From NCBI RefSeq assembly GCF_003790525.1, contig NZ_CP033635.1: DNA of 64,000 nucleotides; one strand, written 5' to 3'. This document shows, piece by piece, positions 1,748-44,739 of the stretch. The notes beneath the pieces are model-generated. The model made no database searches. It saw only the letters and a list, made by a program, of their open reading frames with translations, and was not told the origin of the DNA. The stretch is from Escherichia coli. Lineage in GTDB: Bacteria > Pseudomonadota > Gammaproteobacteria > Enterobacterales > Enterobacteriaceae. The position numbers and the translations under genes were made by a program. The first letter of the stretch is position 1, and the number at the start of each line of letters is the position of its first letter.

Positions 1748-3148
1748 TTATTGTTCGAACTTCGGAGCAATCAGATTATCCAGATTGAATGTCTTCTCCC
1801 ATTCTTCCTGTGTGAGTAGCTTACGTTCGACAACCACTATCTGATGGAGGGATTTGCCTGTATGGTATGCTTCGTGCGCCATTTCAGAACACACCTTATA
1901 TCCCAGATGTGGCTTCAGGAGAGTCACAATACCGCAGGAATGCATTACCATCTCTGCAGTTCGATCGGAATTAGCTGTAATGCCATCAATGCATTTAGTT
2001 CGGAGTGTGTTACAGGCATTCGTCATCACCTTGAGTGAGGTGAACAGCGCAAAGGTGATGACCGGCTCCATAACGTTAAGCTCAAGCTGACCAGCAGATG
2101 CCGCCAGCATCACTGTGGTGTCCAGCCCCTGAACCAGGAAGCAAGACTGGTTTGTTACTTCCGGGATAACGGGGTTAACCTTACCAGGCATAATGGAAGA
2201 ACCCGGTTGCAATTGAGGCAGGTTAATTTCAGCCAGGCCGCAACGGGGGCCTGAAGCAAGCAGTCGAATGTCATTACAAACCTTGGTAAGCTTCACAGAG
2301 AGGCTCTTCATGGCCGAACTGAGTGCAACATATGCACCACAGTCGCTTGTGGCAGCGATGAGATCTTCACTGTTCCTGAAATTAATGCCTGTGATCTGGG
2401 CCAGATATTTCACGGCTAAAGCGGGATAATCCGGGTGAGCGGTAACACAGGTACCAATCGCAGTAGCACCAAGGTTTACAACCCGCAGGTGTTCCTGTGC
2501 ATTACGGATGACCCGAATTTCATCATTAATTGTAAAACCCCAGCCATGGAACTCCTGGCCGAGAGTCATTGGCACTGCATCCTGCAGGTGAGTACGTCCC
2601 ATCTTGAGCACTGTGCTGAACTCGTCAGCCTTTTTGTAGAATGCTCCTACGAGGTGTTCAACAGCTTCAAGCAATACATTGCTTCGCAGCAGCAATGCCA
2701 GATGTAATGCTGTCGGATATGTATCATTGGTGGACTGACCAAAATTAGCATGGTCGTTTGGCGAAACGCGTTTGTAATCCCCTTTAACGCTACCAAGTTT
2801 TTCTGCAGCAAGATTACAAATCACTTCATTGCAGTTCATATTGGTTGACGTTCCGGCTCCCCCCTGAAGCCAGTCGGTCACAAACTGTTCCCGGTACTTA
2901 CCATCAATTAATTGGTCGCAAGCCCAGATTAAAGCATCCGCAACATCAGCAGGAATTGTACCTAACTCCTTATTAGCCATCGCAGCTGCTTTTTTCACAT
3001 AACCGAAGGCAATGATGAAGAAGGGCTCCTGACTCATTGGCATTTCAGTAATATGGAAATTATCCTCACCACGAAGTGTCTGAACACCATAATAGCAATC
3101 ATCCGGAACTTCACGCTCACCAAGGAAATCGCTTTCAATACGAGACAT
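1748..3148 (-). CDS. aspartate ammonia-lyase / class II fumarase family protein (copy A)
   Basis: 466-aa ORF; MSRIESDFLGEREVPDD..YYGVQTLRG N-terminus, GGAGTSTNMN and GSSIMPGKVNPVIPE signature blocks typical of aspartase/fumarase C family; near-identical inverted copy at 30835-32235. Confidence 0.88.
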   Translation of the reverse strand: MSRIESDFLGEREVPDDCYYGVQTLRGEDNFHITEMPMSQEPFFIIAFGYVKKAAAMANKELGTIPADVADALIWACDQLIDGKYREQFVTDWLQGGAGTSTNMNCNEVICNLAAEKLGSVKGDYKRVSPNDHANFGQSTNDTYPTALHLALLLRSNVLLEAVEHLVGAFYKKADEFSTVLKMGRTHLQDAVPMTLGQEFHGWGFTINDEIRVIRNAQEHLRVVNLGATAIGTCVTAHPDYPALAVKYLAQITGINFRNSEDLIAATSDCGAYVALSSAMKSLSVKLTKVCNDIRLLASGPRCGLAEINLPQLQPGSSIMPGKVNPVIPEVTNQSCFLVQGLDTTVMLAASAGQLELNVMEPVITFALFTSLKVMTNACNTLRTKCIDGITANSDRTAEMVMHSCGIVTLLKPHLGYKVCSEMAHEAYHTGKSLHQIVVVERKLLTQEEWEKTFNLDNLIAPKFEQ

Positions 3149-4013
3149 AATTTTCTAACTCCATTTTTCGAAAACAATGTGACAATAACAAATTGTTTTC
3201 ATAAAACACTTATCCAACATTAAGAATGAATACTTATAATCACCAGATGACATAACCATTACCATCTAATGGAATATATTTAAACTAATAAGATAAACTT
3301 AAAACGTGATATCAAGCACATTTTTATAACGTTAAAATTAGTGGGTTATTTAGCAATCAAATATAACCAGTAAAAGCCCGAAATATGCAGATAACGCTGC
3401 ACTAATATGATTAAGATCAAAAAAAACAATTCCGCAATCAAACTTATTATTAATGCTGATTTTTTAAATCATGATTAAGTAGAACTATTTTATAATAGCA
3501 TCCCGGTTTGGTCACATCCTTCAGAAAAACAACCTGTTTACCACCATAGAAAATCTATATCTCTGCTAGGTTTTCCAGCGTTGTAGATATAGTCACTCAT
3601 GGTGATTCTTATTAAGATAAGAGTTTTTACACGGGAATGTTATTGCACTTCTAATTGATAAATCTTGGAATAGAGTAGAAAACGTAATGTTTCCACTCCA
3701 TCTTCCGCTTTAATGGTTTGTAATTTGAGTTAGATCATGGATTTTAACATCCATTATGATTAATTATTTTTAGATGATTTGATCACTAAATCGTCTTTCA
3801 GGGTGTAACGGCATTAATCATCACAAGCTAAAAAAACGCCATACTGTAATGGAGTCTGTATTTTATGTTCAATCATGCAAAGGCTCTTCATAATTATCAT
3901 TTCTCTCTTGGAAAAATGACAGCCTGAACATAGCATAAATTCACGTTCTTCAGAGTCAGAAGGTGTTAATAAACTGTCCCTAAAATCTGGAAAATGTTGA
4001 AGAAGGCATCTCA
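3149..4013. promoter_or_regulatory. AT-rich divergent intergenic region between aspartase-like copy A (minus) and pepT-like gene (plus); likely carries both promoters
   Basis: about 865 bp without convincing ORF, strongly AT-rich, flanked by divergently oriented start codons. Confidence 0.3.
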
Positions 4014-30612: not shown

Positions 30613-30834
30613 TAGAATCATAATTTTCATTCTTTATGGAAGTAGTTACAGAGTTACTATTTGATAATTAGTCAGGCAGTTAATCTGCATTCAGTTACTG
30701 ACTGTCAGAAGAATTCTGACAGATTGATATCACATGTTATTTCAATGATGTAAGAATTCAAATTCCGAGAGCATAGCTCCGGTTAAACAATTTGTTATTG
30801 TCACATTGTTTTCAAATAATGGAGTTAGAATATT

Positions 30835-32235
30835 ATGTCTCGTATTGAAAGCGATTTCCTTGGTGAGCGTGAAATTCCGGATGATTGCTATTATGGTGTT
30901 CAGACACTTCGTGGAAAAGATAATTTCCATATCACTGAAATGCCAATGAGTCAGGAGCCTTTCTTCATCATTGCCTTCGGTTATGTGAAAAAAGCAGCTG
31001 CGATGGCTAATAAGGAGTTAGGTACAATTCCTGCTGATGTTGCGGATGCTTTAATCTGGGCTTGCGACCAATTAATTGATGGTAAGTACCGGGAACAGTT
31101 TGTGACCGACTGGCTTCAGGGGGGAGCCGGAACGTCAACCAATATGAACTGCAATGAAGTGATTTGTAATCTTGCTGCAGAAAAACTTGGTAGCGTTAAA
31201 GGGGATTACAAACGCGTTTCGCCAAACGACCATGCTAATTTTGGTCAGTCCACCAATGATACATATCCGACAGCATTACATCTGGCATTGCTGCTGCGAA
31301 GCAATGTATTGCTTGAAGCTGTTGAACACCTCGTAGGAGCATTCTACAAAAAGGCTGACGAGTTCAGCACAGTGCTCAAGATGGGACGTACTCACCTGCA
31401 GGATGCAGTGCCAATGACTCTCGGCCAGGAGTTCCATGGCTGGGGTTTTACAATTAATGATGAAATTCGGGTCATCCGTAATGCACAGGAACACCTGCGG
31501 GTTGTAAACCTTGGTGCTACTGCGATTGGTACCTGTGTTACCGCTCACCCGGATTATCCCGCTTTAGCCGTGAAATATCTGGCCCAGATCACAGGCATTA
31601 ATTTCAGGAACAGTGAAGATCTCATCGCTGCCACAAGCGACTGTGGTGCATATGTTGCACTCAGTTCGGCCATGAAGAGCCTCTCTGTGAAGCTTACCAA
31701 GGTTTGTAATGACATTCGACTGCTTGCTTCAGGCCCCCGTTGCGGCCTGGCTGAAATTAACCTGCCTCAATTGCAACCGGGTTCTTCCATTATGCCTGGT
31801 AAGGTTAACCCCGTTATCCCGGAAGTAACAAACCAGTCTTGCTTCCTGGTTCAGGGGCTGGACACCACAGTGATGCTGGCGGCATCTGCTGGTCAGCTTG
31901 AGCTTAACGTTATGGAGCCGGTCATCACCTTTGCGCTGTTCACCTCACTCAAGGTGATGACGAATGCCTGTAACACACTCCGAACTAAATGCATTGATGG
32001 CATTACAGCTAATTCCGATCGAACTGCAGAGATGGTAATGCATTCCTGCGGTATTGTGACTCTCCTGAAGCCACATCTGGGATATAAGGTGTGTTCTGAA
32101 ATGGCGCACGAAGCATACCATACAGGCAAATCCCTCCATCAGATAGTGGTTGTCGAACGTAAGCTACTCACACAGGAAGAATGGGAGAAGACATTCAATC
32201 TGGATAATCTGATTGCTCCGAAGTTCGAACAATAA
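30835..32235 (+). CDS. aspartate ammonia-lyase / class II fumarase family protein (copy B)
   Basis: 466 aa, differs from copy A at about 2 residues (V14I, E28K); about 50 bp of upstream sequence is also shared. Confidence 0.88.
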   Translation: MSRIESDFLGEREIPDDCYYGVQTLRGKDNFHITEMPMSQEPFFIIAFGYVKKAAAMANKELGTIPADVADALIWACDQLIDGKYREQFVTDWLQGGAGTSTNMNCNEVICNLAAEKLGSVKGDYKRVSPNDHANFGQSTNDTYPTALHLALLLRSNVLLEAVEHLVGAFYKKADEFSTVLKMGRTHLQDAVPMTLGQEFHGWGFTINDEIRVIRNAQEHLRVVNLGATAIGTCVTAHPDYPALAVKYLAQITGINFRNSEDLIAATSDCGAYVALSSAMKSLSVKLTKVCNDIRLLASGPRCGLAEINLPQLQPGSSIMPGKVNPVIPEVTNQSCFLVQGLDTTVMLAASAGQLELNVMEPVITFALFTSLKVMTNACNTLRTKCIDGITANSDRTAEMVMHSCGIVTLLKPHLGYKVCSEMAHEAYHTGKSLHQIVVVERKLLTQEEWEKTFNLDNLIAPKFEQ

Positions 32236-38475: not shown

Positions 38476-39855
38476 TTAGGTTTTCAGAATACGGTAGAAC
38501 TCGAGTACCAGTTGCTGCGCTATTTTCAACTCCGGTTCTTTTTCACACATCAGACTAATAAATCGGAAAGCATAATTTTCTCCACCCCTGATTATTCTCC
38601 AGGGCATCAACCAGCGGCTTACCCGGGACACTGAAGGAAGTCTTGCGGCAGTAGTAACCGGTGGGATCCAGCCTTTATGCCATTTGGCAACAGCATCCCT
38701 GACGATGGTTTCACTGCCTGTAACCCCCCTGGCCACCATTTCCCGCCATATCCGGCCGGAGTTATAATTACCACATTCTCGTTGCTCTTTTAACCACTCC
38801 CTCCATGGGTCCAGAAGCCCTCGCTTTGGAGGCCTGGTTGACATTTCAGGGAATGTTCCTGAACCCACCCAGCGACTGACTGTCACTCGCGACAGGCCTG
38901 TAATACGGGATATTTCCCTGAAACTACATCCCTTGTTATGCAGGGCCATAACCTCTGTCCAACGCTGATGCCGTTTTTTGCGGATGTGCTGTTTAAGGCG
39001 TTCCAGACGACGGAGCGATGCTACAGGCACAGATATTTCTGGCTCAGGTGATTTCTTCAGTGATAACTCTCTGACAACAAGACGTATCAGAGGCATATGT
39101 CTGTACATCATTCGTTCAGGCTCATCACCAATATTTTTTAGCAGGTGCCATCGATCGGCCACCTGTCTGGCCTGAGGTGCACCTTCACGTGCTGCTGTCG
39201 CATAGACTCCACTGCGATCACGCGAGACAACCTGTATTTCCGGATATTTTCTGAACCAGGTCGCCAGCGTACGCTGATCACGGCCGGGAAGCAGGACGAG
39301 GGGACGGTGAGTATCAGGATTGACTATTAACATACCGCAGCAGTGGCCCCGATGCCACGCCCACTCATCAATACCGACATGAGGCGCGCCTGACTGTTTC
39401 GTCTCCGGGGTATTGATAAGCCTGCGAAGAAGAGTATCAGCACTGCAACGGAGACCCACTGCCGTTGCAGCCCGTTTTCCAGCCTCACCTCCAGCTATTA
39501 ATCCCAGTTGACATTGTTAATTTTGTAACGCCTGTGAAGACTGCTGGTGTGAACTGGCGAAGGGAGCAAGCGACTCGGCAAAAATTTTACGTGAACAAGC
39601 CGGGTTACGGCAGTACCAGTGGCGGACGGAAAATACAAGCCATAGCGTCTGCCCTGAGCAGGGTAGATGCTGTATCCGGCGCCGACGACAACTATGAACA
39701 GAGTCGCTACGCTTAAAGCATTCAGGACATTGTGCTGTTTTGCGTTTTCCGTGGAGATGGAGGGTTATACCGTCAGAGCTAATAATTTGTCGACTGCATC
39801 GCCATCCGCAAGGTAACTGTAGAAGTGTCTTAAGAGAGTGCATTGCGTTGCCCAT
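38476..39855 (-). pseudogene. transposase with ISL3-like zinc-finger and DDE signatures, frameshifted (39517-39855 N-terminal part; 38476-39459 C-terminal part)
   Basis: N-terminal CPECF..YCRNPACSRKIFAE zinc ribbon; GIDEWAWHRGH..VVSRDRSGVYA..QVADRWHLLKN DDE region; domain order atypical, family assignment tentative. Confidence 0.5.
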
Positions 39856-40138
39856 AACTTAAAACAGCTTAGATCCTTGTTCGCCAGAAAGTTTCATCCA
39901 TTTTCTTCCACCCAGGTTGCGGAAGAACCACTTTTCATCCGTCGTTGACAGATGTGAAGTATGCGGGAGAAAAAGTGAATATCTAACTGTAATAACTCAG
40001 ACCGGTACGAGTACTCGGGACGTCTACAATCATTCAGGGCAAAGTGCTAAAATTTCTCTATCCCGGGATGCCCCTACCAACGCAGCACTCCCGGAGATAT
40101 CATTACAGCTCTGCAACTGATTTCCGCGACTGAACCGC

Positions 40139-40546
40139 TCAGTTCCTATCCTTCCAGTTGCCCTCCTGCCCCCCCTCCCTGCTGTATACCCCGGTACCAC
40201 AACTCGGGCAGCACTTTTCCCCCTCATAATTTTCGTCACACATCACACAAAACCACTTTCTCACCTTCACCGTATAATCCGGAACCGTCATACCCTGCAG
40301 ATGCAAACGACGGGCCTCTTTCTCTGCCGGGTCAAGCCAGGTGCATCGCAGCAGGATTTTCTCAGCGACAGTCATCTGGTCATGTTCAAACCACGGTGGT
40401 TGTCCGTCATTGCCCCGCTGAAGTGTTAACGGGCATCCACAGGACACACAGCACAAAACGTCCTGGCGGTTGTGCTTCGCTGCTTCTTTCGCCGTAACAA
40501 AATGGCCTTTGCTGTCATTCGCCATATAACAGTTCAGAATTCGCAT
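40139..40546 (-). CDS. zinc-ribbon hypothetical protein (paralog 2; motifs CxxC..PWFEH..CxxC)
   Basis: paralogous to the adjacent upstream ORF; two Cys pairs flanking a conserved WFEH motif; start taken at MRILN. Confidence 0.5.
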   Translation of the reverse strand: MRILNCYMANDSKGHFVTAKEAAKHNRQDVLCCVSCGCPLTLQRGNDGQPPWFEHDQMTVAEKILLRCTWLDPAEKEARRLHLQGMTVPDYTVKVRKWFCVMCDENYEGEKCCPSCGTGVYSREGGQEGNWKDRN

Positions 40547-40941
40547 ATTTCCTCCTGAGTTGTCCGGGGAATACTGAATCCTCCGGTCTGGCAGTGTGTG
40601 CAGTACCGCTCCCCATAATAATCGTGGTGACATTGTCTGCAGTGCCAGCTGGCTTTACGCACCACGGGTAAGGCATCCGGTACGAATTGCTGCAGACGTT
40701 TAATCAACTGTATTTCTCTGCGCTCCGGCCTGACATAAGGGCACTGTTGACCGTGCTCTGTCAGCCTGTCGTCAGTGTGTTCAAACCAGGGAAGTTCAGT
40801 GTCGTATTGCGGATGGTATCTGAGTGCACTGCCACACAAGTGGCAGGTGTAGTTAGCATAAGGTGCGGCCTGTGCAGTACGGGCGCCCGTCAGACGTCCG
40901 TTGCCATCAAGAGCGATAAAGGATTTTGCGTACATAGTCAT
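40534..40941 (-). CDS. zinc-ribbon hypothetical protein (paralog 1; motifs CxxC..PWFEH..CxxC)
   Basis: 135 aa; CHLCG..PWFEHTDD..CRQCHHDYYGERYCTHCQ. Confidence 0.5.
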   Translation of the reverse strand: MTMYAKSFIALDGNGRLTGARTAQAAPYANYTCHLCGSALRYHPQYDTELPWFEHTDDRLTEHGQQCPYVRPERREIQLIKRLQQFVPDALPVVRKASWHCRQCHHDYYGERYCTHCQTGGFSIPRTTQEEICEF

Positions 40942-41194
40942 ATTCCTCAGCCGCCAGACGACACGCAGGCAACAGCCGTCCCGGTACGGGCAGCGTGGTC
41001 AGGGTGTGAATGGCGGTTCAGTTAAAATCTGGACTGGAGTTTGGGTAAAGCAGGCTGGTTGCTGTTACAGCACTGTGGTTGTCACACAATGGAACACTGA
41101 CGTAAAAAACAGTCAGTGGGCGAGTGGATACATCGTTGCCGCCAGACAACAACCCATACTTTTGGTTTGCCGGGTATTGGCGCGCCAGTCGTGC

Positions 41195-41764
41195 TCAACT
41201 CCGGCTACAGCCAAAATTGCGCTCACCGGTGCAGTGAGCTTTGGTATGTTCCTTCGCCAGATAGTCAGCACGTTCCAGCACCTGCTGAAAGCCAGTGTCA
41301 TCATCGCGTTCCAGCCACACCGCCGGCCAGGCCGGAAAATGCACCAGCGTGGCATGGCACCCGACATCCACTCCCAGGGCACTGCACCACGCCTGTTTAA
41401 TCATCCCGGCCAGTGATCCCGGAGCACGGTAATCACCGGCACGACACCAGGTATCCCGGTTAACCAGCAGCATCAGGTGATAGTGTTTTTTACCTTTGCA
41501 CTCCCCAAACTCCCGGGCCCAGACGTAATGCAGGGTTGTGGGATGCACGCGTTTACCTTCCCGATGCTTACGTTTCTGGTAAGCGTCGATTCGGGCTTTC
41601 AGGGCATTGATGAAGCGGGATATCACAGCTGCGTCCGTTGCTGCCGGTACATCCGGGAAACGCAGGTCAACCCGCAATGCCGTCAGGCGGGGATGAACAT
41701 TCAGTGCGTGCCGCACCGTCTCACGAATACGTTGCTGCCAGAAGGGGTTGTATTTGTAGGTCAT
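41195..41764 (-). CDS. YagK/YfjJ-family (inovirus Gp2-like) protein, putative
   Basis: 189 aa from MTYKYNPFW with GGAG RBS; family assignment from context and pattern (HYHLMLLVN), tentative. Confidence 0.45.
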   Translation of the reverse strand: MTYKYNPFWQQRIRETVRHALNVHPRLTALRVDLRFPDVPAATDAAVISRFINALKARIDAYQKRKHREGKRVHPTTLHYVWAREFGECKGKKHYHLMLLVNRDTWCRAGDYRAPGSLAGMIKQAWCSALGVDVGCHATLVHFPAWPAVWLERDDDTGFQQVLERADYLAKEHTKAHCTGERNFGCSRS

Positions 41765-41960
41765 GGTTAAATCTCCGTATGGTTCATACGGAATAGCCAC
41801 GTCGTAAAAAATGCGCAGAGTCCCTGAAGTGACCTCCGGCAGGACACTGTCTCAGGCACTCTGTGATAACCCGAACGGTCGTCTCCGGACTGACGGTTGA
41901 ATTTTCAGCGTTGTTTTTTTAATGTAAAAAACCGGTTACGGGTAAGGCTGTGAGGAGGGA

Positions 41961-42164
41961 GTGATGGTGATACGCAAAAAGAAGTGCAGGGACTGTGGAA
42001 ACGCGATTACTCATAATACAGTGTGTTGCCCGTATTGTGGTTCTGTCGACCCCTTCGGCTATTACCGGAATACAGACCGTATCGTTACCATACTGCTGGC
42101 ACTGATTATTGTGGTCCTGCTGACTACTGTCAGCGTCAGTGTGTATATACTGTGTAGCTGGTGA
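41961..42164 (+). CDS. small zinc-ribbon membrane protein (CxxC..CxxC plus one TM helix), hypothetical
   Basis: 67 aa; KKCRDCGNAITHNTVCCPYCG followed by hydrophobic segment ILLALIIVVLLTTVSV. Confidence 0.4.
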   Translation: MMVIRKKKCRDCGNAITHNTVCCPYCGSVDPFGYYRNTDRIVTILLALIIVVLLTTVSVSVYILCSW

Positions 42165-43117
42165 GATAACGGTTCATGTATCCCCTGAGCTGACAGTGTA
42201 CCGGGTATATTAAGCGTAACCGACAGGTTCTCCTTCATACCATATTAAATTTTTCCAGGTATTGCCGCTGCCTTATTTCGTCCCATACAGGAAAACTCGT
42301 CTGGGTTTCTGACAAATACGCGAAACTCACAGCCCCTCAATATCAACCACACGCTGTAAGCCGGTAATACCTGAAAATCAGCCTATTACCGCCCGCGCCT
42401 CCGTTACCGAACGCTCAGGTGACCAGACTGAAGCCCAGCACGCACTCGTAAAATTTGCGGTCAGTTCCGTCAGTCAGTGGGCAACCGCAGAGTTACGGGC
42501 TTCCAGGTCCACAGGAGTGAGTCTATAACGCGTGTGGGAAATCATTTTTTCTGGCGTTGACAGAACGCCTTACGGGCTGCTACTTACCCGGTGTCCCGCA
42601 ATACAGCCTTAGTGTTCCGTTATCGGGGATCCGGACGCACCGCAACAACCGGGGAAGTATTTCTGGTTAGAGCTGTGTCAAGAGGGATTTCTCAGCCCCT
42701 CACTCACCGGCTCAGTCTCAGGGCAGAAGCATTAATACACTCAGTTCATGTCTTATACAGGAATGGGCATAGGGGGAGCTGGCGTGTCACTGCTGATTTT
42801 ACGCATCAGCGTTCATGTATCTGCACTCTGATACAGAATGCTTCACAGCGCTCTGTTACCGGAGAGATTTACTCTCTTAGGTTATTCTGGCAAATCCTTT
42901 ACGTTACTCTCTGATGACTTCTTATATTTATAATACCAATCAGACAACCTTATCCCATCGGTGATATCAGTCTCCTGCTCGCCAGGAACGGGCTGACTCA
43001 CTGTAACCACCTCCGAAAACAACTCTGCAATTATCAGAACGCCTGCTTCTCTCCCTGTCCTCACGAAAACTATCCCCTCTTTATCGCGCGTGCGTGCGGA
43101 AGCATCTTTTCGCAACA

Positions 43118-43130
43118 CCCCCCCCCCCCC
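43118..43130. repeat. homopolymeric C13 tract about 165 bp upstream of alpA
   Basis: 13 consecutive C residues seen directly. Confidence 0.8.
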
Positions 43131-43294
43131 GGGATTCCGCTACGGCTCTGCCATCGCAATCCCCCCGTTTATCTCCGGACAGCCACATTCCCGATTATTT
43201 TTTACGTTTCTCCCCGGTTGTTATGCCGGTGAAGGTGGCGCGCTGTTTTCATGACCACACCGGCTGGTTTAACAACATCCGGAGGAACATTCTC

Positions 43295-43501
43295 ATGGCT
43301 ACCCCAGTTTCGCTGATGGATGACCAGATGGTCGACATGGCGTTTATCACTCAACTGACCGGCCTAACCGATAAGTGGTTTGACAAACTCATCAAAGATG
43401 GGGGCTTTCCTGCGCCCATCAAAATGGGGCGCAGCTCCCGCTGGCTGAAAAGTGAAGTGGAAGCCTGGCTGCAGGCGCGTATTGCACAGTCCCGTCCGTA
43501 A
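43295..43501 (+). CDS. alpA: AlpA-family prophage transcriptional regulator (HTH)
   Basis: GGAGGA RBS; 68 aa; FITQLTGLTDKWFDKLIKDGGFPAPIKMGRSSRWLKSEVEAWL typical of AlpA. Confidence 0.8.
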   Translation: MATPVSLMDDQMVDMAFITQLTGLTDKWFDKLIKDGGFPAPIKMGRSSRWLKSEVEAWLQARIAQSRP

Positions 43502-43579
43502 TTTTTAACCACTAACCCTTCGCCCACAGCAGACGCAATCTCCGGCCTGCCGGCGGCGCTCTGCTGCCTGTTATCCCCC

Positions 43580-44197
43580 GTGAGGAATATGAAAATGAAA
43601 CAACAGTATCAGACCCGTTACGAGCTGCTCCATGAAAACTACCAGAAATGGCTGACCGGCTTCACCCGGCACGCCGTATCATGGGGCGTGTGTCATCCGA
43701 ATATCTACTATTTCCATAATCTGACGCCCGGGTGGGTGTCATTCAATGGCGAAAAACCGGAGATTGCCATCGTTCCCCAGAGTCTGCACCGGCTGATTTA
43801 TGGTCCGGACAAACGGAGCTCCCCGTCCCTGGATGATGATCTGGTGGTGAATTTATGCACCAGCGAACACCTGCTGGTTCATCATCCGATGCTGGAAGGG
43901 ATCCTGCTGTCTGAATGTGAGCGCCTGAAGCAACATTCTCTGGCAAACAAACTGATCAGCCTCTTCCGTCAGTTTGGCGGCACGGAGTTACGTCTCAAAC
44001 TGGTCTGGCTCTGCTGGCTTGACTTAATGACCGGAAACAGCCTTGACGACTGGACGAAAAACCTGAAACACAAATCAGAAAAAGATCTGGAGCAATGGAT
44101 CATTGCACGTCAGGGTCAGAGTGAACCACTGACAAATCTGATGGATCAGTACGTGCTTATGGCATACCGTACATCGGTTGATGCCGCTCACAGTTGA
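43580..44197 (+). CDS. hypothetical protein (CP4-island backbone, unknown function)
   Basis: 205-aa ORF downstream of alpA; no recognisable motif. Confidence 0.5.
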   Translation: MRNMKMKQQYQTRYELLHENYQKWLTGFTRHAVSWGVCHPNIYYFHNLTPGWVSFNGEKPEIAIVPQSLHRLIYGPDKRSSPSLDDDLVVNLCTSEHLLVHHPMLEGILLSECERLKQHSLANKLISLFRQFGGTELRLKLVWLCWLDLMTGNSLDDWTKNLKHKSEKDLEQWIIARQGQSEPLTNLMDQYVLMAYRTSVDAAHS

Positions 44198-44739
44198 TGT
44201 CTGAGAACCACAGGGCTGGCAGCAGAAAACCAGCCCTGTGGTAAAATACAGTAATAGCGGCGTACATCAGGCACGCCGCTCACTCGTCCACAGATCATAT
44301 ACGTCATTATACTGCGCGATAACGGAGGGCTTCAGCACCCGGTCATTTCTGAGCGGGTATGAATACCATTGATGATGCGAAGCAGCCACGTGCAGAAACG
44401 TTCTTCACAACCAGGTGCCTCCATCTTCACTGCAGTCTGAATGTGCCGGCTTGTTATCCACCAGAAATGGTATGCTCCGGTACATGCATACCCCGGAGAC
44501 TATAAACGCACTGAATCATAGCCTCCCACCTCAGCAGGAGGCAGTCAGCTTTCAGGCGGAAAAACGTTGCAGTTAAAGATCGTGAGAATCGCTGTTTCGT
44601 TGCATAGCAACCCGAACAGTTGTAGTGAAACATTTTACCTGCATCAGCACATGGTCAGGCGCCGTCTGTATGGCGTGGAATACTGATGTTTCGGCTGATG
44701 GCAAGCCTCATTCTGTACTGACCCCAAAAAGTTGGACAG

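What the first reader, a model, noticed from the sequence alone, without database searches (positions are those of the whole stretch)
43118..43130. C13 homopolymer upstream of alpA
Thirteen consecutive cytosines lie about 165 bp upstream of the alpA start. Homopolymeric tracts of this length are slippage-prone and could modulate promoter spacing (phase variation) of alpA, which in CP4-57 controls integrase and excision. It could alternatively be a sequencing artefact in a difficult region.
Basis: seen in the sequence. Interest (0 to 1): 0.3.

Follow-up and report, generated by a model that had tools for sequence, protein, structure and literature searches.

The report
Hypervariable poly-C tract upstream of alpA-like gene
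A run of 13 cytosines in an E. coli genomic island is real and changes length very fast between strains (C11 to C17 on otherwise identical DNA), but it lies outside any recognisable promoter of the neighbouring AlpA-family gene, so it is best read as a young, unstable microsatellite (and an insertion-sequence landing site), not a proven genetic switch.

Summary
C13 sits at 43118-43130, 164 nt before the ATG (43295) of an AlpA-family gene. It is the only homopolymer longer than 8 in the window.

The length is hypervariable. Verified strains with zero mismatches in 4,888 flanking bases carry C11, C15, C16 and C17. The 58 closest unsplit records imply C11-C17 with a mode of C14. Other alleles are C7-C10 and the common interrupted CCCCCCTCC. 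Diverged paralogous islands carry the non-repetitive ACCACCC. The tract is therefore a young microsatellite born by A-to-C substitution and slippage, not an artefact.

The phase-variation reading is not supported as stated:
- The tract lies in no promoter-like spacer.
- The best alpA-like promoter candidate (43169-43198) starts 38 bp downstream of it.
- The tract sits in the least conserved patch of the intergenic region.
- The gene is only 33% identical over 30 aa to K-12 AlpA, and no integrase is annotated in the window.
- In roughly 28% of records carrying the region (B2 lineages), the IS110-family element ISEc20 is inserted inside the tract, with the gene left intact.

Five ISEc20 insertion sites are all flanked by C runs, so oligo-C appears to be that IS's target. 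A spacing effect on a conserved element abutting the tract is not excluded.

The parts
43118..43130 (.). C13 homopolymer (G13 on the minus strand). Hypervariable mononucleotide microsatellite.
   Evidence: sequence; only run longer than 8 in the window. (alleles from C6/C7 to C17; C11, C15, C16 and C17 verified with zero flank mismatches).
43114..43186 (.). Least-conserved patch of the intergenic region; contains the tract. Two flank haplotypes are seen: GGGATTCCGC... and GGTATACCGG...
   Evidence: Alignments and the per-column conservation over 37 unique sequences.
43090..43117 (.). Conserved element abutting the tract on the left (GTGCGTGCGGAAGCATCTTTTCGCAACA). Function unknown.
   Evidence: Conserved even in paralogs that are 82-89% identical.
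43169..43198 (+). Best promoter-like site for the alpA-like gene: TTATCT, 18 nt spacer, GATTAT. Weak; this is an inference.
   Evidence: My own PWM scan, score 5.35. It was not reported by the stricter tool scan. The implied transcription start near 43205 coincides with the base of the conserved leader hairpin.
43206..43288 (+). Conserved leader hairpin with three stacked stems. GUUUCUCC (43206-43213) pairs with the Shine-Dalgarno region GGAGGAAC (43281-43288).
   Evidence: RNAalifold gives 25 pairs, all kept, with 5 one-sided G-U changes, 1 broken cell and no compensatory change. Single-sequence MFE is -35.2 kcal/mol, z = -1.9. The region is near-invariant.
43295..43501 (+). AlpA-family helix-turn-helix gene (68 aa; WP_000235214.1 in ECONIH1).
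   Evidence: Pfam PF05930, 25.2 bits against a cut-off of 21. PGAP annotation. Only 33% identity over 30 aa to K-12 AlpA.
43595..44197 (+). Downstream 200-aa hypothetical gene, co-oriented with the alpA-like gene (WP_000813432.1).
   Evidence: Annotation. No Pfam hit.
42882..43001 (-). Small divergent ORF (39 aa, GTG start) preceded by the Shine-Dalgarno sequence GGAGG (43010-43014). Core motif ITDGIRLSDWYYKY.
   Evidence: My reading of the alignment shows the reading frame kept and synonymous changes in diverged paralogs. The longer 78-88 aa versions called by PGAP are broken by frameshifting indels in the paralogs and by an in-frame TAG in the window.
43023..43041 (-). Invariant block CTCTGCAATTATCAGAACG. 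On the minus strand it contains a -10-like GATAAT (43030-43035) upstream of the small ORF.
   Evidence: Fully conserved. The promoter role is an inference only.
42423..42548 (-). Remnant (pseudogene) of an Hha/YmoA paralog that is intact in paralogous islands.
   Evidence: tblastn of the strain 042 Hha paralog gives 56% identity with an in-frame stop. Intact genes are annotated.

Best explanation
The tract is a young, hypermutable mononucleotide microsatellite. It lies in the least constrained ~70 bp of the intergenic region between two divergent units of a CP4-type (P4-like) E. coli island: a small ORF plus a decayed hha paralog on the minus strand, and an AlpA-family gene plus a 200-aa gene on the plus strand.

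Shown. The ancestral sequence at this site was the non-repetitive ACCACCC. In one island lineage, A-to-C substitutions created C6-C7. Alleles then run from C8 to C17, most simply explained by replication slippage. One branch was stabilised by an interruption (CCCCCCTCC, the commonest allele). In the B2 lineages examined, the IS110-family element ISEc20 sits inside the run.

Inferred. The length changes are largely neutral. The tract lies upstream of the likely alpA-like promoter and its SD-sequestering leader, not inside them. Its most tangible consequences are length polymorphism and offering an oligo-C target to ISEc20, rather than on/off control of the AlpA-family gene.
For: Hypermutability:
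- C11, C15, C16 and C17 were verified with zero mismatches in 4,888 flanking bases.
- C12, C13 and C14 were verified over about 1.2 kb.
- Spans of the 58 closest unsplit 4.9 kb matches imply C11:2, C12:9, C13:10, C14:26, C15:7, C16:2, C17:2.
- Epidemiologically related pairs agree in length: DETEC-P649/P666, KN13-4/KN12-1, GN03551/GN03139, WR3-3/WR14-2, MSB1_7A/3B.
- A C6 run 30 bp away is constant in length in 29 of 30 unique sequences. This serves as an internal control.

Birth series:
- ACCACCC is found in all diverged paralogs and in 39 metagenome contigs.
- The intermediates ACCCCCC, ACCCCCCC, C7, C9, A+C10 and C6TCC are all present, and C8 is present in O157:H7 493/89.
- Expansion is seen only on the GGGATTCCGC flank haplotype, which suggests a single origin.

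Position:
- No promoter-like spacer contains the tract.
- The conserved region upstream of the ATG is 43187-43295, and it carries an SD-sequestering hairpin.

Dispensability of upstream context:
- ISEc20 splits the tract in UM146, Nissle 1917 and ST131 strain 4993, and the alpA-like ORF is still annotated intact.
- 17 of 60 evenly spaced rows (roughly 780 of 2,752 records) show the same break point inside the tract.

Other:
- No Rfam match.
- No paper found on this tract.
Against: - A conserved element (43090-43117) directly abuts the tract. Any change in tract length shifts it, in distance and helical phase, relative to the alpA-like promoter region. A regulatory effect is therefore possible and untested.
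- The promoter has not been mapped. My candidate is weak (PWM score 5.35) and was missed by the stricter scan.
- Persistence of long alleles (C11-C17, mode C14) in many strains from diverse hosts could reflect selection for mutability rather than neutrality.
- Some plus-or-minus-1 differences between assemblies may be homopolymer sequencing errors.
Confidence: 0.6

Rival explanations
1. Contingency locus. Tract length sets the spacing or helical phase between the conserved upstream element (43090-43117) and the alpA-like promoter. This would give heritable, reversible switching or graded expression of the AlpA-family regulator, as the C-stretch does in the Bordetella fim promoters.
For: - The tract is long and hypervariable on an invariant haplotype.
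- It lies in a divergent intergenic region, directly next to a conserved element.
- Bordetella fim2/fim3/fimX promoters use C tracts of similar length, about C7-C19, and also show interrupted alleles such as C6TC3 (PMC1891110).
Against: - The tract is not inside any -35/-10 spacer. It ends 38 bp upstream of the best -35 candidate and lies 164 nt before the ATG. [quoted passage not shown]
- Most family members have the non-repeat ACCACCC at this site.
- Expansion arose once only.
- The length distribution is unimodal.
- An IS insertion that separates the two sides by 1.45 kb is carried in all three B2 strains examined, and the same break point recurs in about 28% of records.
Confidence: 0.17
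2. The tract acts at the RNA or protein level. Either it is part of a C-rich Rho-loading (rut) leader, if a long plus-strand transcript crosses it, or it is a frameshift switch inside an ORF (the 135-aa in-frame N-terminal extension of the alpA-like gene, or the 78-88 aa minus-strand ORF).
For: - The plus strand over 42880-43220 is strongly C-rich and G-poor. The C/G ratio is 1.5-3.75 in 78-nt windows; windows overlapping the tract peak at 3.33, about the 99.8th percentile of the window.
- With C13, an ORF runs in frame from GTG 43094 into the alpA-like gene.
- PGAP calls an 88-aa minus-strand ORF across this site in strain 042 and a 77-aa ORF in B2 strains.
Against: - The plus-strand extension is broken by non-triplet indels in paralogs.
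- In the window, the minus-strand ORF has an in-frame TAG (CCGCTACGG against CCGGTACGG) upstream of the tract, whatever the tract length.
- Frameshifting indels also break the part of that minus-strand ORF between the SD-preceded GTG start of the 39-aa core and the tract.
- There is no evidence for a promoter that would transcribe through the tract. The TATAAT at 42929 lies inside the small ORF's conserved coding sequence.
Confidence: 0.05
3. Sequencing or assembly artefact in a difficult homopolymer.
For: Long homopolymers are error-prone in long-read assemblies (own knowledge). Many of the differences between records are a single base.
Against: - A tract of 11 or more C is present in dozens of independent assemblies.
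- Related isolate pairs give identical lengths.
- Shorter alleles differ by substitutions as well as by length (CCCCCCTCC, ACCCCCC).
- The range C8-C17 is far larger than typical plus-or-minus-1 errors.
Confidence: 0.02

Closest known systems
Bordetella pertussis/bronchiseptica fim2, fim3, fimX promoter 'C-stretch' (Willems et al. 1990, as summarised in PMC1891110)
   Same: An intergenic poly-C tract of similar length (C7-C19). It is length-polymorphic among strains, and some lineages carry interrupted, 'locked' alleles (C6TC3 there, C6TCC here).
   Different: [quoted passage not shown] Here the tract ends 38 bp upstream of the best -35 candidate, no activator is known, and no expression data exist.
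Neutral bacterial mononucleotide microsatellites and the birth-expansion-interruption life cycle of simple sequence repeats (own knowledge of the SSR literature)
   Same: Origin by point substitution in a proto-repeat (ACCACCC to ACCCCCC). Instability grows with length: the neighbouring C6 is stable while C11-C17 is hypervariable. The length distribution is stepwise and unimodal. An interruption stabilises one branch.
   Different: From my own knowledge, runs of 13-17 G/C are unusually long for mismatch-repair-proficient E. coli. This was not re-measured here beyond the window.
alpA of cryptic prophage CP4-57 (E. coli K-12)
   Same: Same Pfam family (PF05930), a small HTH protein, and a P4-like island context.
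   Different: Only 33% identity over 30 aa. K-12 alpA lies 43 bp from yfjH and about 1.2 kb from intA. Here no integrase is annotated in the region colinear with the window, and the upstream region is different.
IS110-family bridge-RNA-guided insertion (IS621; PMC11208160)
   Same: ISEc20 is placed in the IS110 subgroup with a left-end (LE) bridge RNA in that paper's supplement. It inserts in a sequence-specific way, and here always between C runs. Its left end folds into two long stem-loops containing a C5 and a G6 run.
   Different: The target appears to be a homopolymer rather than a REP-like sequence. The guide-target pairing was not modelled or tested here.

Membership tests
Simple-sequence-repeat contingency locus (promoter-type phase variation) | Homopolymer long enough to slip at high rate (about 8-9 nt or more) | tested here: met
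   C13 in the window. Alleles up to C17.
Simple-sequence-repeat contingency locus (promoter-type phase variation) | Tract length differs among otherwise near-identical strains | tested here: met
   C11, C15, C16 and C17 with zero mismatches in 4,888 flanking bases. C12 and C14 with no other difference across 4.9 kb, judged from spans and bit scores.
Simple-sequence-repeat contingency locus (promoter-type phase variation) | Tract lies within the promoter (in the -35/-10 spacer, or between an activator site and -10) or inside a reading frame | tested here: inconclusive
   No predicted -35/-10 pair spans the tract. ORFs that cross it are not conserved. However, the promoter and any regulator sites are unmapped, and a conserved element abuts the tract.
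Simple-sequence-repeat contingency locus (promoter-type phase variation) | Length heterogeneity within a clonal culture, and reversible length-dependent expression | not testable with these tools
   This needs read pile-ups and reporter or RT-qPCR assays.
AlpA / Phage_AlpA (PF05930) family | Match to the family profile above the curated cut-off | tested here: met
   25.2 bits against a cut-off of 21, residues 13-59.
alpA of CP4-57 (ortholog with a role in integrase activation and excision) | Close sequence identity and conserved neighbourhood (intA-yfjH-alpA-yfjI) | tested here: not met
   33% identity over 30 aa. Different neighbours, and no integrase annotated in the ECONIH1 region colinear with window 1-62183.
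Target site of an IS110-family (ISEc20) bridge recombinase | The element is found inserted precisely at this site in other genomes | tested here: met
   C5 | ISEc20 | C6 in UM146, Nissle 1917 and ST131 strain 4993. The same break point appears in 17 of 60 evenly spaced rows.
Target site of an IS110-family (ISEc20) bridge recombinase | Independent copies of the element share the same target motif | tested here: met
   Four other loci are flanked by C4-C8 on both sides. The uninterrupted rtcB-family target reads CCCCACCCCCC, and an uninterrupted zinc-ribbon paralog has C6.
Target site of an IS110-family (ISEc20) bridge recombinase | [quoted passage not shown] | tested here: inconclusive
   The left end contains C5 and G6 runs inside a long stem-loop. 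The loops were not aligned to the IS621 model, and there is no Rfam match.

The most novel reading that the evidence does not exclude
The tract is a genuine contingency locus of E. coli. Slippage between C11 and C17 would re-phase the conserved element at 43090-43117 relative to the alpA-like promoter. That would stochastically tune an AlpA-family regulator or excisionase of a CP4-type island. The same homopolymer would also serve as the RNA-guided landing pad of the IS110-family element ISEc20, so that IS insertion and scarless excision form a second, slower switch at the same site.
Probability: 0.1. Interest if true: 0.6.

Novelty: new member of a known kind. Interest (0 to 1): 0.35.

Why it matters
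From my own knowledge, E. coli is usually described as poor in simple-sequence contingency loci. A C11-C17 tract that changes length on otherwise identical DNA is therefore a rare, easily typed hypermutable site in this species. It could serve as a fine-scale strain marker. It also makes a direct question testable: whether an AlpA-family regulator of a P4-like island is tuned by slippage. The incidental finding may be of more general use. An RNA-guided IS110-family element (ISEc20) appears to home to oligo-C runs and occupies this tract in the B2 strains examined (ST131, UM146, Nissle 1917). If confirmed, this links homopolymer evolution to bridge-recombinase targeting.

Tried and rejected
- Rfam scan of 41800-43700 at E <= 1: no match. 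Scan of the ISEc20 locus: no match.
- Tool promoter/terminator scan of 42100-43600: no plus-strand promoter, and counts no higher than in shuffles.
- The in-frame 135-aa extension of the alpA-like ORF through the tract: rejected, because paralogs carry non-triplet indels in it.
- The 78-88 aa minus-strand ORF through or next to the tract: rejected as a conserved gene. The window has an in-frame TAG, and paralogs have frameshifting indels. Only the 39-aa core preceded by an SD looks coding.
- A conserved plus-strand TATAAT at 42929 as a far-upstream alpA promoter: its conservation is explained by the coding sequence of the small ORF.
- Direct orthology to K-12 alpA: rejected.
- Genome-contig scan for the flanks: only a chance match in an unrelated GC-rich MAG. 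No cross-species information was gained.
- Literature searches for a described poly-C switch at alpA, or for ISEc20 target specificity: nothing relevant.
- The idea that long tracts are footprints of ISEc20 excision: not supported, because IS110 elements excise scarlessly (PMC11208160).

Full report
**Observation.** Window 43118-43130 is exactly thirteen C. It is the only homopolymer longer than 8 nt in the 64 kb window. The iid expectation for a C run of at least 13 is about 4.5e-4.

**Context.**
- The window is colinear with and 99.98-99.99% identical to E. coli ECONIH1. The one difference is an IS2 copy that the window lacks.
- PGAP annotation of ECONIH1 shows a large island ending at yeeS-yeeT-cbeA-cbtA-yeeW, followed by tmaR-yeeA-sbmC. 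From my own knowledge, this is the chromosomal site of CP4-44 in K-12.
- The local order is: two zinc-ribbon genes and an inovirus-Gp2-family gene (minus strand); a 66-aa hypothetical gene; about 1.1 kb without annotation; the 68-aa HTH gene; then a 200-aa hypothetical gene.
- No integrase is annotated in the ECONIH1 region colinear with window 1-62183. No tRNA gene was found in the window.
- The 68-aa protein is a Pfam Phage_AlpA member (25.2 bits, cut-off 21). It shares only 33% identity over 30 residues with K-12 AlpA.
- K-12 alpA has a different upstream neighbour, yfjH, 43 bp away, with intA next to that. The gene here is therefore 'alpA-like', not alpA of CP4-57.

**Tract length across strains.**
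- A 641-bp query finds the region in 3,545 of 5,426 complete E. coli genomes, often in several paralogous islands.
- Fetched examples show C14 (SMS-3-5), C13 (ECONIH1), C12 (Rb-50), C12 with a CA deletion (AHB22), C8 (O157:H7 493/89) and CCCCCCTCC (MEI003).
- With a 4.9-kb query (39800-44700), I inferred tract length from the spans of the 58 best unsplit matches. They imply C11:2, C12:9, C13:10, C14:26, C15:7, C16:2, C17:2.
- I fetched four of these and confirmed C11, C15, C16 and C17 with zero mismatches in all 4,888 flanking bases.
- Pairs of related isolates give identical lengths: DETEC-P649/P666, KN13-4/KN12-1, GN03551/GN03139, WR3-3/WR14-2, MSB1_7A/3B. This argues that the lengths are heritable alleles and not random read error, although single plus-or-minus-1 calls in long-read assemblies remain uncertain.
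- A C6 run 30 bp away (43161-43166) keeps its length in 29 of 30 unique sequences. It serves as an internal control for length-dependent instability.
- An evenly spaced sample of all 2,752 records matching a 151-nt query suggests the following, judged from match spans. Among uninterrupted alleles of the window type, the 9-nt form is the most common (CCCCCCTCC in the one genome of this class that I fetched), followed by the 8-nt and 7-nt forms. C10-C11 and C12 or longer each make up under 10%.

**Origin.**
- All diverged paralogous islands examined (strain 042, strain 361, AR_0086, M505; 82-94% identity) read ACCACCC at the homologous position. ETEC6334 reads GCCACCG.
- Fifty-nine metagenome contigs with the same flanks give ACCACCC (39), ACCCCCC (10), CCCCCCTCC (4) and single cases of ACCCCCCC, C7, C9 and A+C10.
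- The expansion is seen only on the GGGATTCCGC flank haplotype.
- The simplest history is therefore: ACCACCC to ACCCCCC (A to C), then C7 and longer, then slippage up to C17, with one branch stabilised by a C-to-T interruption. This is the usual birth, expansion and interruption cycle of a microsatellite.
- It also shows that the tract is not an ancient, conserved regulatory element.

**Where the tract sits.**
- Column-wise conservation over 37 unique sequences shows a near-invariant block at 43187-43295 just upstream of the ATG, an invariant block at 43023-43041, a conserved element at 43090-43117 that abuts the tract, and a poorly conserved patch at 43114-43186 that contains it.
- The tool scan found no plus-strand promoter. 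My own PWM scan found no -35/-10 pair with the tract in its spacer. The best plus-strand candidate near the gene is TTATCT-18-GATTAT (43169-43198; weak, score 5.35), which starts 38 bp downstream of the tract.
- A transcription start near 43205 would coincide with the foot of a conserved three-tier hairpin (43206-43288). In it, GUUUCUCC pairs with the Shine-Dalgarno region GGAGGAAC. Of the 25 predicted pairs, all are kept apart from five one-sided G-U changes and one broken cell, and none shows compensatory covariation. The MFE is -35.2 kcal/mol, z = -1.9.
- On the minus strand, a 39-aa ORF (42882-43001) with a good SD keeps its frame and shows synonymous changes in diverged paralogs (my reading). 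Downstream of it the window holds only a remnant of an Hha/YmoA paralog that is intact elsewhere.
- Longer ORFs that cross the tract are not conserved. These are the 135-aa plus-strand extension and the 78-88 aa minus-strand ORFs. They are broken by non-triplet indels in paralogs, and the window has an in-frame TAG.
- The tract therefore lies between two divergent units, in their least constrained spacer. It is not in a recognisable core promoter or a conserved reading frame.

**A demonstrable consequence: an IS target.**
- In UM146, Nissle 1917 and ST131 strain 4993, the IS110-family element ISEc20 (1.45 kb) is inserted inside the tract, giving C5 | IS | C6. The alpA-like ORF is still annotated intact 195 bp downstream.
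- The same break point (the match starts at window 43125) is seen in 17 of 60 evenly spaced rows, roughly 780 of 2,752 records.
- Four other ISEc20 copies at unrelated loci are also flanked by C runs on both sides: C5|C7 in an rtcB-family gene, C8|C6, C4|C7 on a plasmid, and C4|C4.
- The uninterrupted rtcB-family target reads CCCCACCCCCC, and an uninterrupted zinc-ribbon paralog has C6 at the junction.
- ISEc20 is placed in the IS110 subgroup whose bridge RNA lies in the left end (supplement of PMC11208160). IS110 elements insert by RNA-guided, sequence-specific recombination and excise scarlessly (PMC11208160).
- The ISEc20 left end contains C5 and G6 runs within a long stem-loop. I infer that ISEc20 homes to oligo-C runs of roughly 9-13 nt and that this tract was such a target. 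The guide-target pairing was not modelled.

**Interpretation.** My best-supported reading (confidence about 0.6) is a largely neutral, hypermutable microsatellite in a weakly constrained spacer of a decaying P4-like island.
- It is not excluded in a weaker form. Length changes necessarily move the conserved 43090-43117 element relative to the alpA-like promoter region (rival, about 0.17).
- The closest known functional analogue is the Bordetella fim promoter C-stretch, which has similar lengths and even similar interrupted alleles. There, however, the tract overlaps the mapped promoter (PMC1891110).
- RNA-level or frameshift roles (about 0.05) and an artefact (about 0.02) are unlikely.

**Limits.**
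- There are no read-level data, no transcription-start or expression data, and no phylogeny of the strains.
- Record counts taken from evenly spaced rows are estimates. Tract lengths inferred from match spans were verified in only seven genomes.
- The genome-contig scan gave only a chance hit, so nothing can be said about other species.

Noticed in passing
L007:51-1500 (UM146); also L074-L078, L080: ISEc20 (IS110 family) copies at five insertion sites are all flanked by C runs of 4-8 nt on both sides. The uninterrupted rtcB-family target reads CCCCACCCCCC. This suggests that ISEc20 targets oligo-C homopolymers. Its left end carries C5 and G6 runs in a long stem-loop, as expected if bridge-RNA guides pair with an oligo-C/oligo-G target.
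   Followed up: partly
window 43206-43288 (+): A conserved three-tier hairpin in the presumed leader of the alpA-like gene pairs GUUUCUCC with the Shine-Dalgarno region GGAGGAAC. It is near-invariant across paralogs and shows no compensatory covariation. This may be translational control of the AlpA-family gene.
   Followed up: partly
window 42882-43001 (-): An unannotated 39-aa ORF with a strong SD and the conserved core ITDGIRLSDWYYKY. It shows synonymous differences between paralogs and lies upstream of an Hha/YmoA paralog in other islands. No Pfam match.
   Followed up: partly
window 42423-42548 (-): An Hha/YmoA-family paralog is a pseudogene here (in-frame stop) but intact in strain 042, AR_0086, ETEC6334 and M505.
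   Followed up: partly
window 1748-3198 and 30785-32235: An inverted duplication of about 1.45 kb at 99.4% identity, covering aspartate ammonia-lyase genes next to C4-dicarboxylate transporter genes. The island carries two copies of this module.
   Followed up: no
window ~44849/44843 junction; L001 21970-23300: ECONIH1 carries an IS2 insertion that the window lacks. Otherwise the two are 99.98-99.99% identical over about 62 kb.
   Followed up: no
window ~40170-40176 (L001 17290-17296): A C7 run lies within or next to the zinc-ribbon genes. In ETEC4073, ISEc20 abuts a truncated zinc-ribbon paralog, at a position where an uninterrupted paralog (metagenome contig L028) has C6. The equivalent site in the window itself has no C run.
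   Followed up: partly
L010-L068 (metagenome contigs): Several contigs begin or end within about 100 bp of the tract site (for example L014, L016, L048, L051, L061, L068). This is probably assembly breakage at a multi-copy island backbone, not a biological junction.
   Followed up: no
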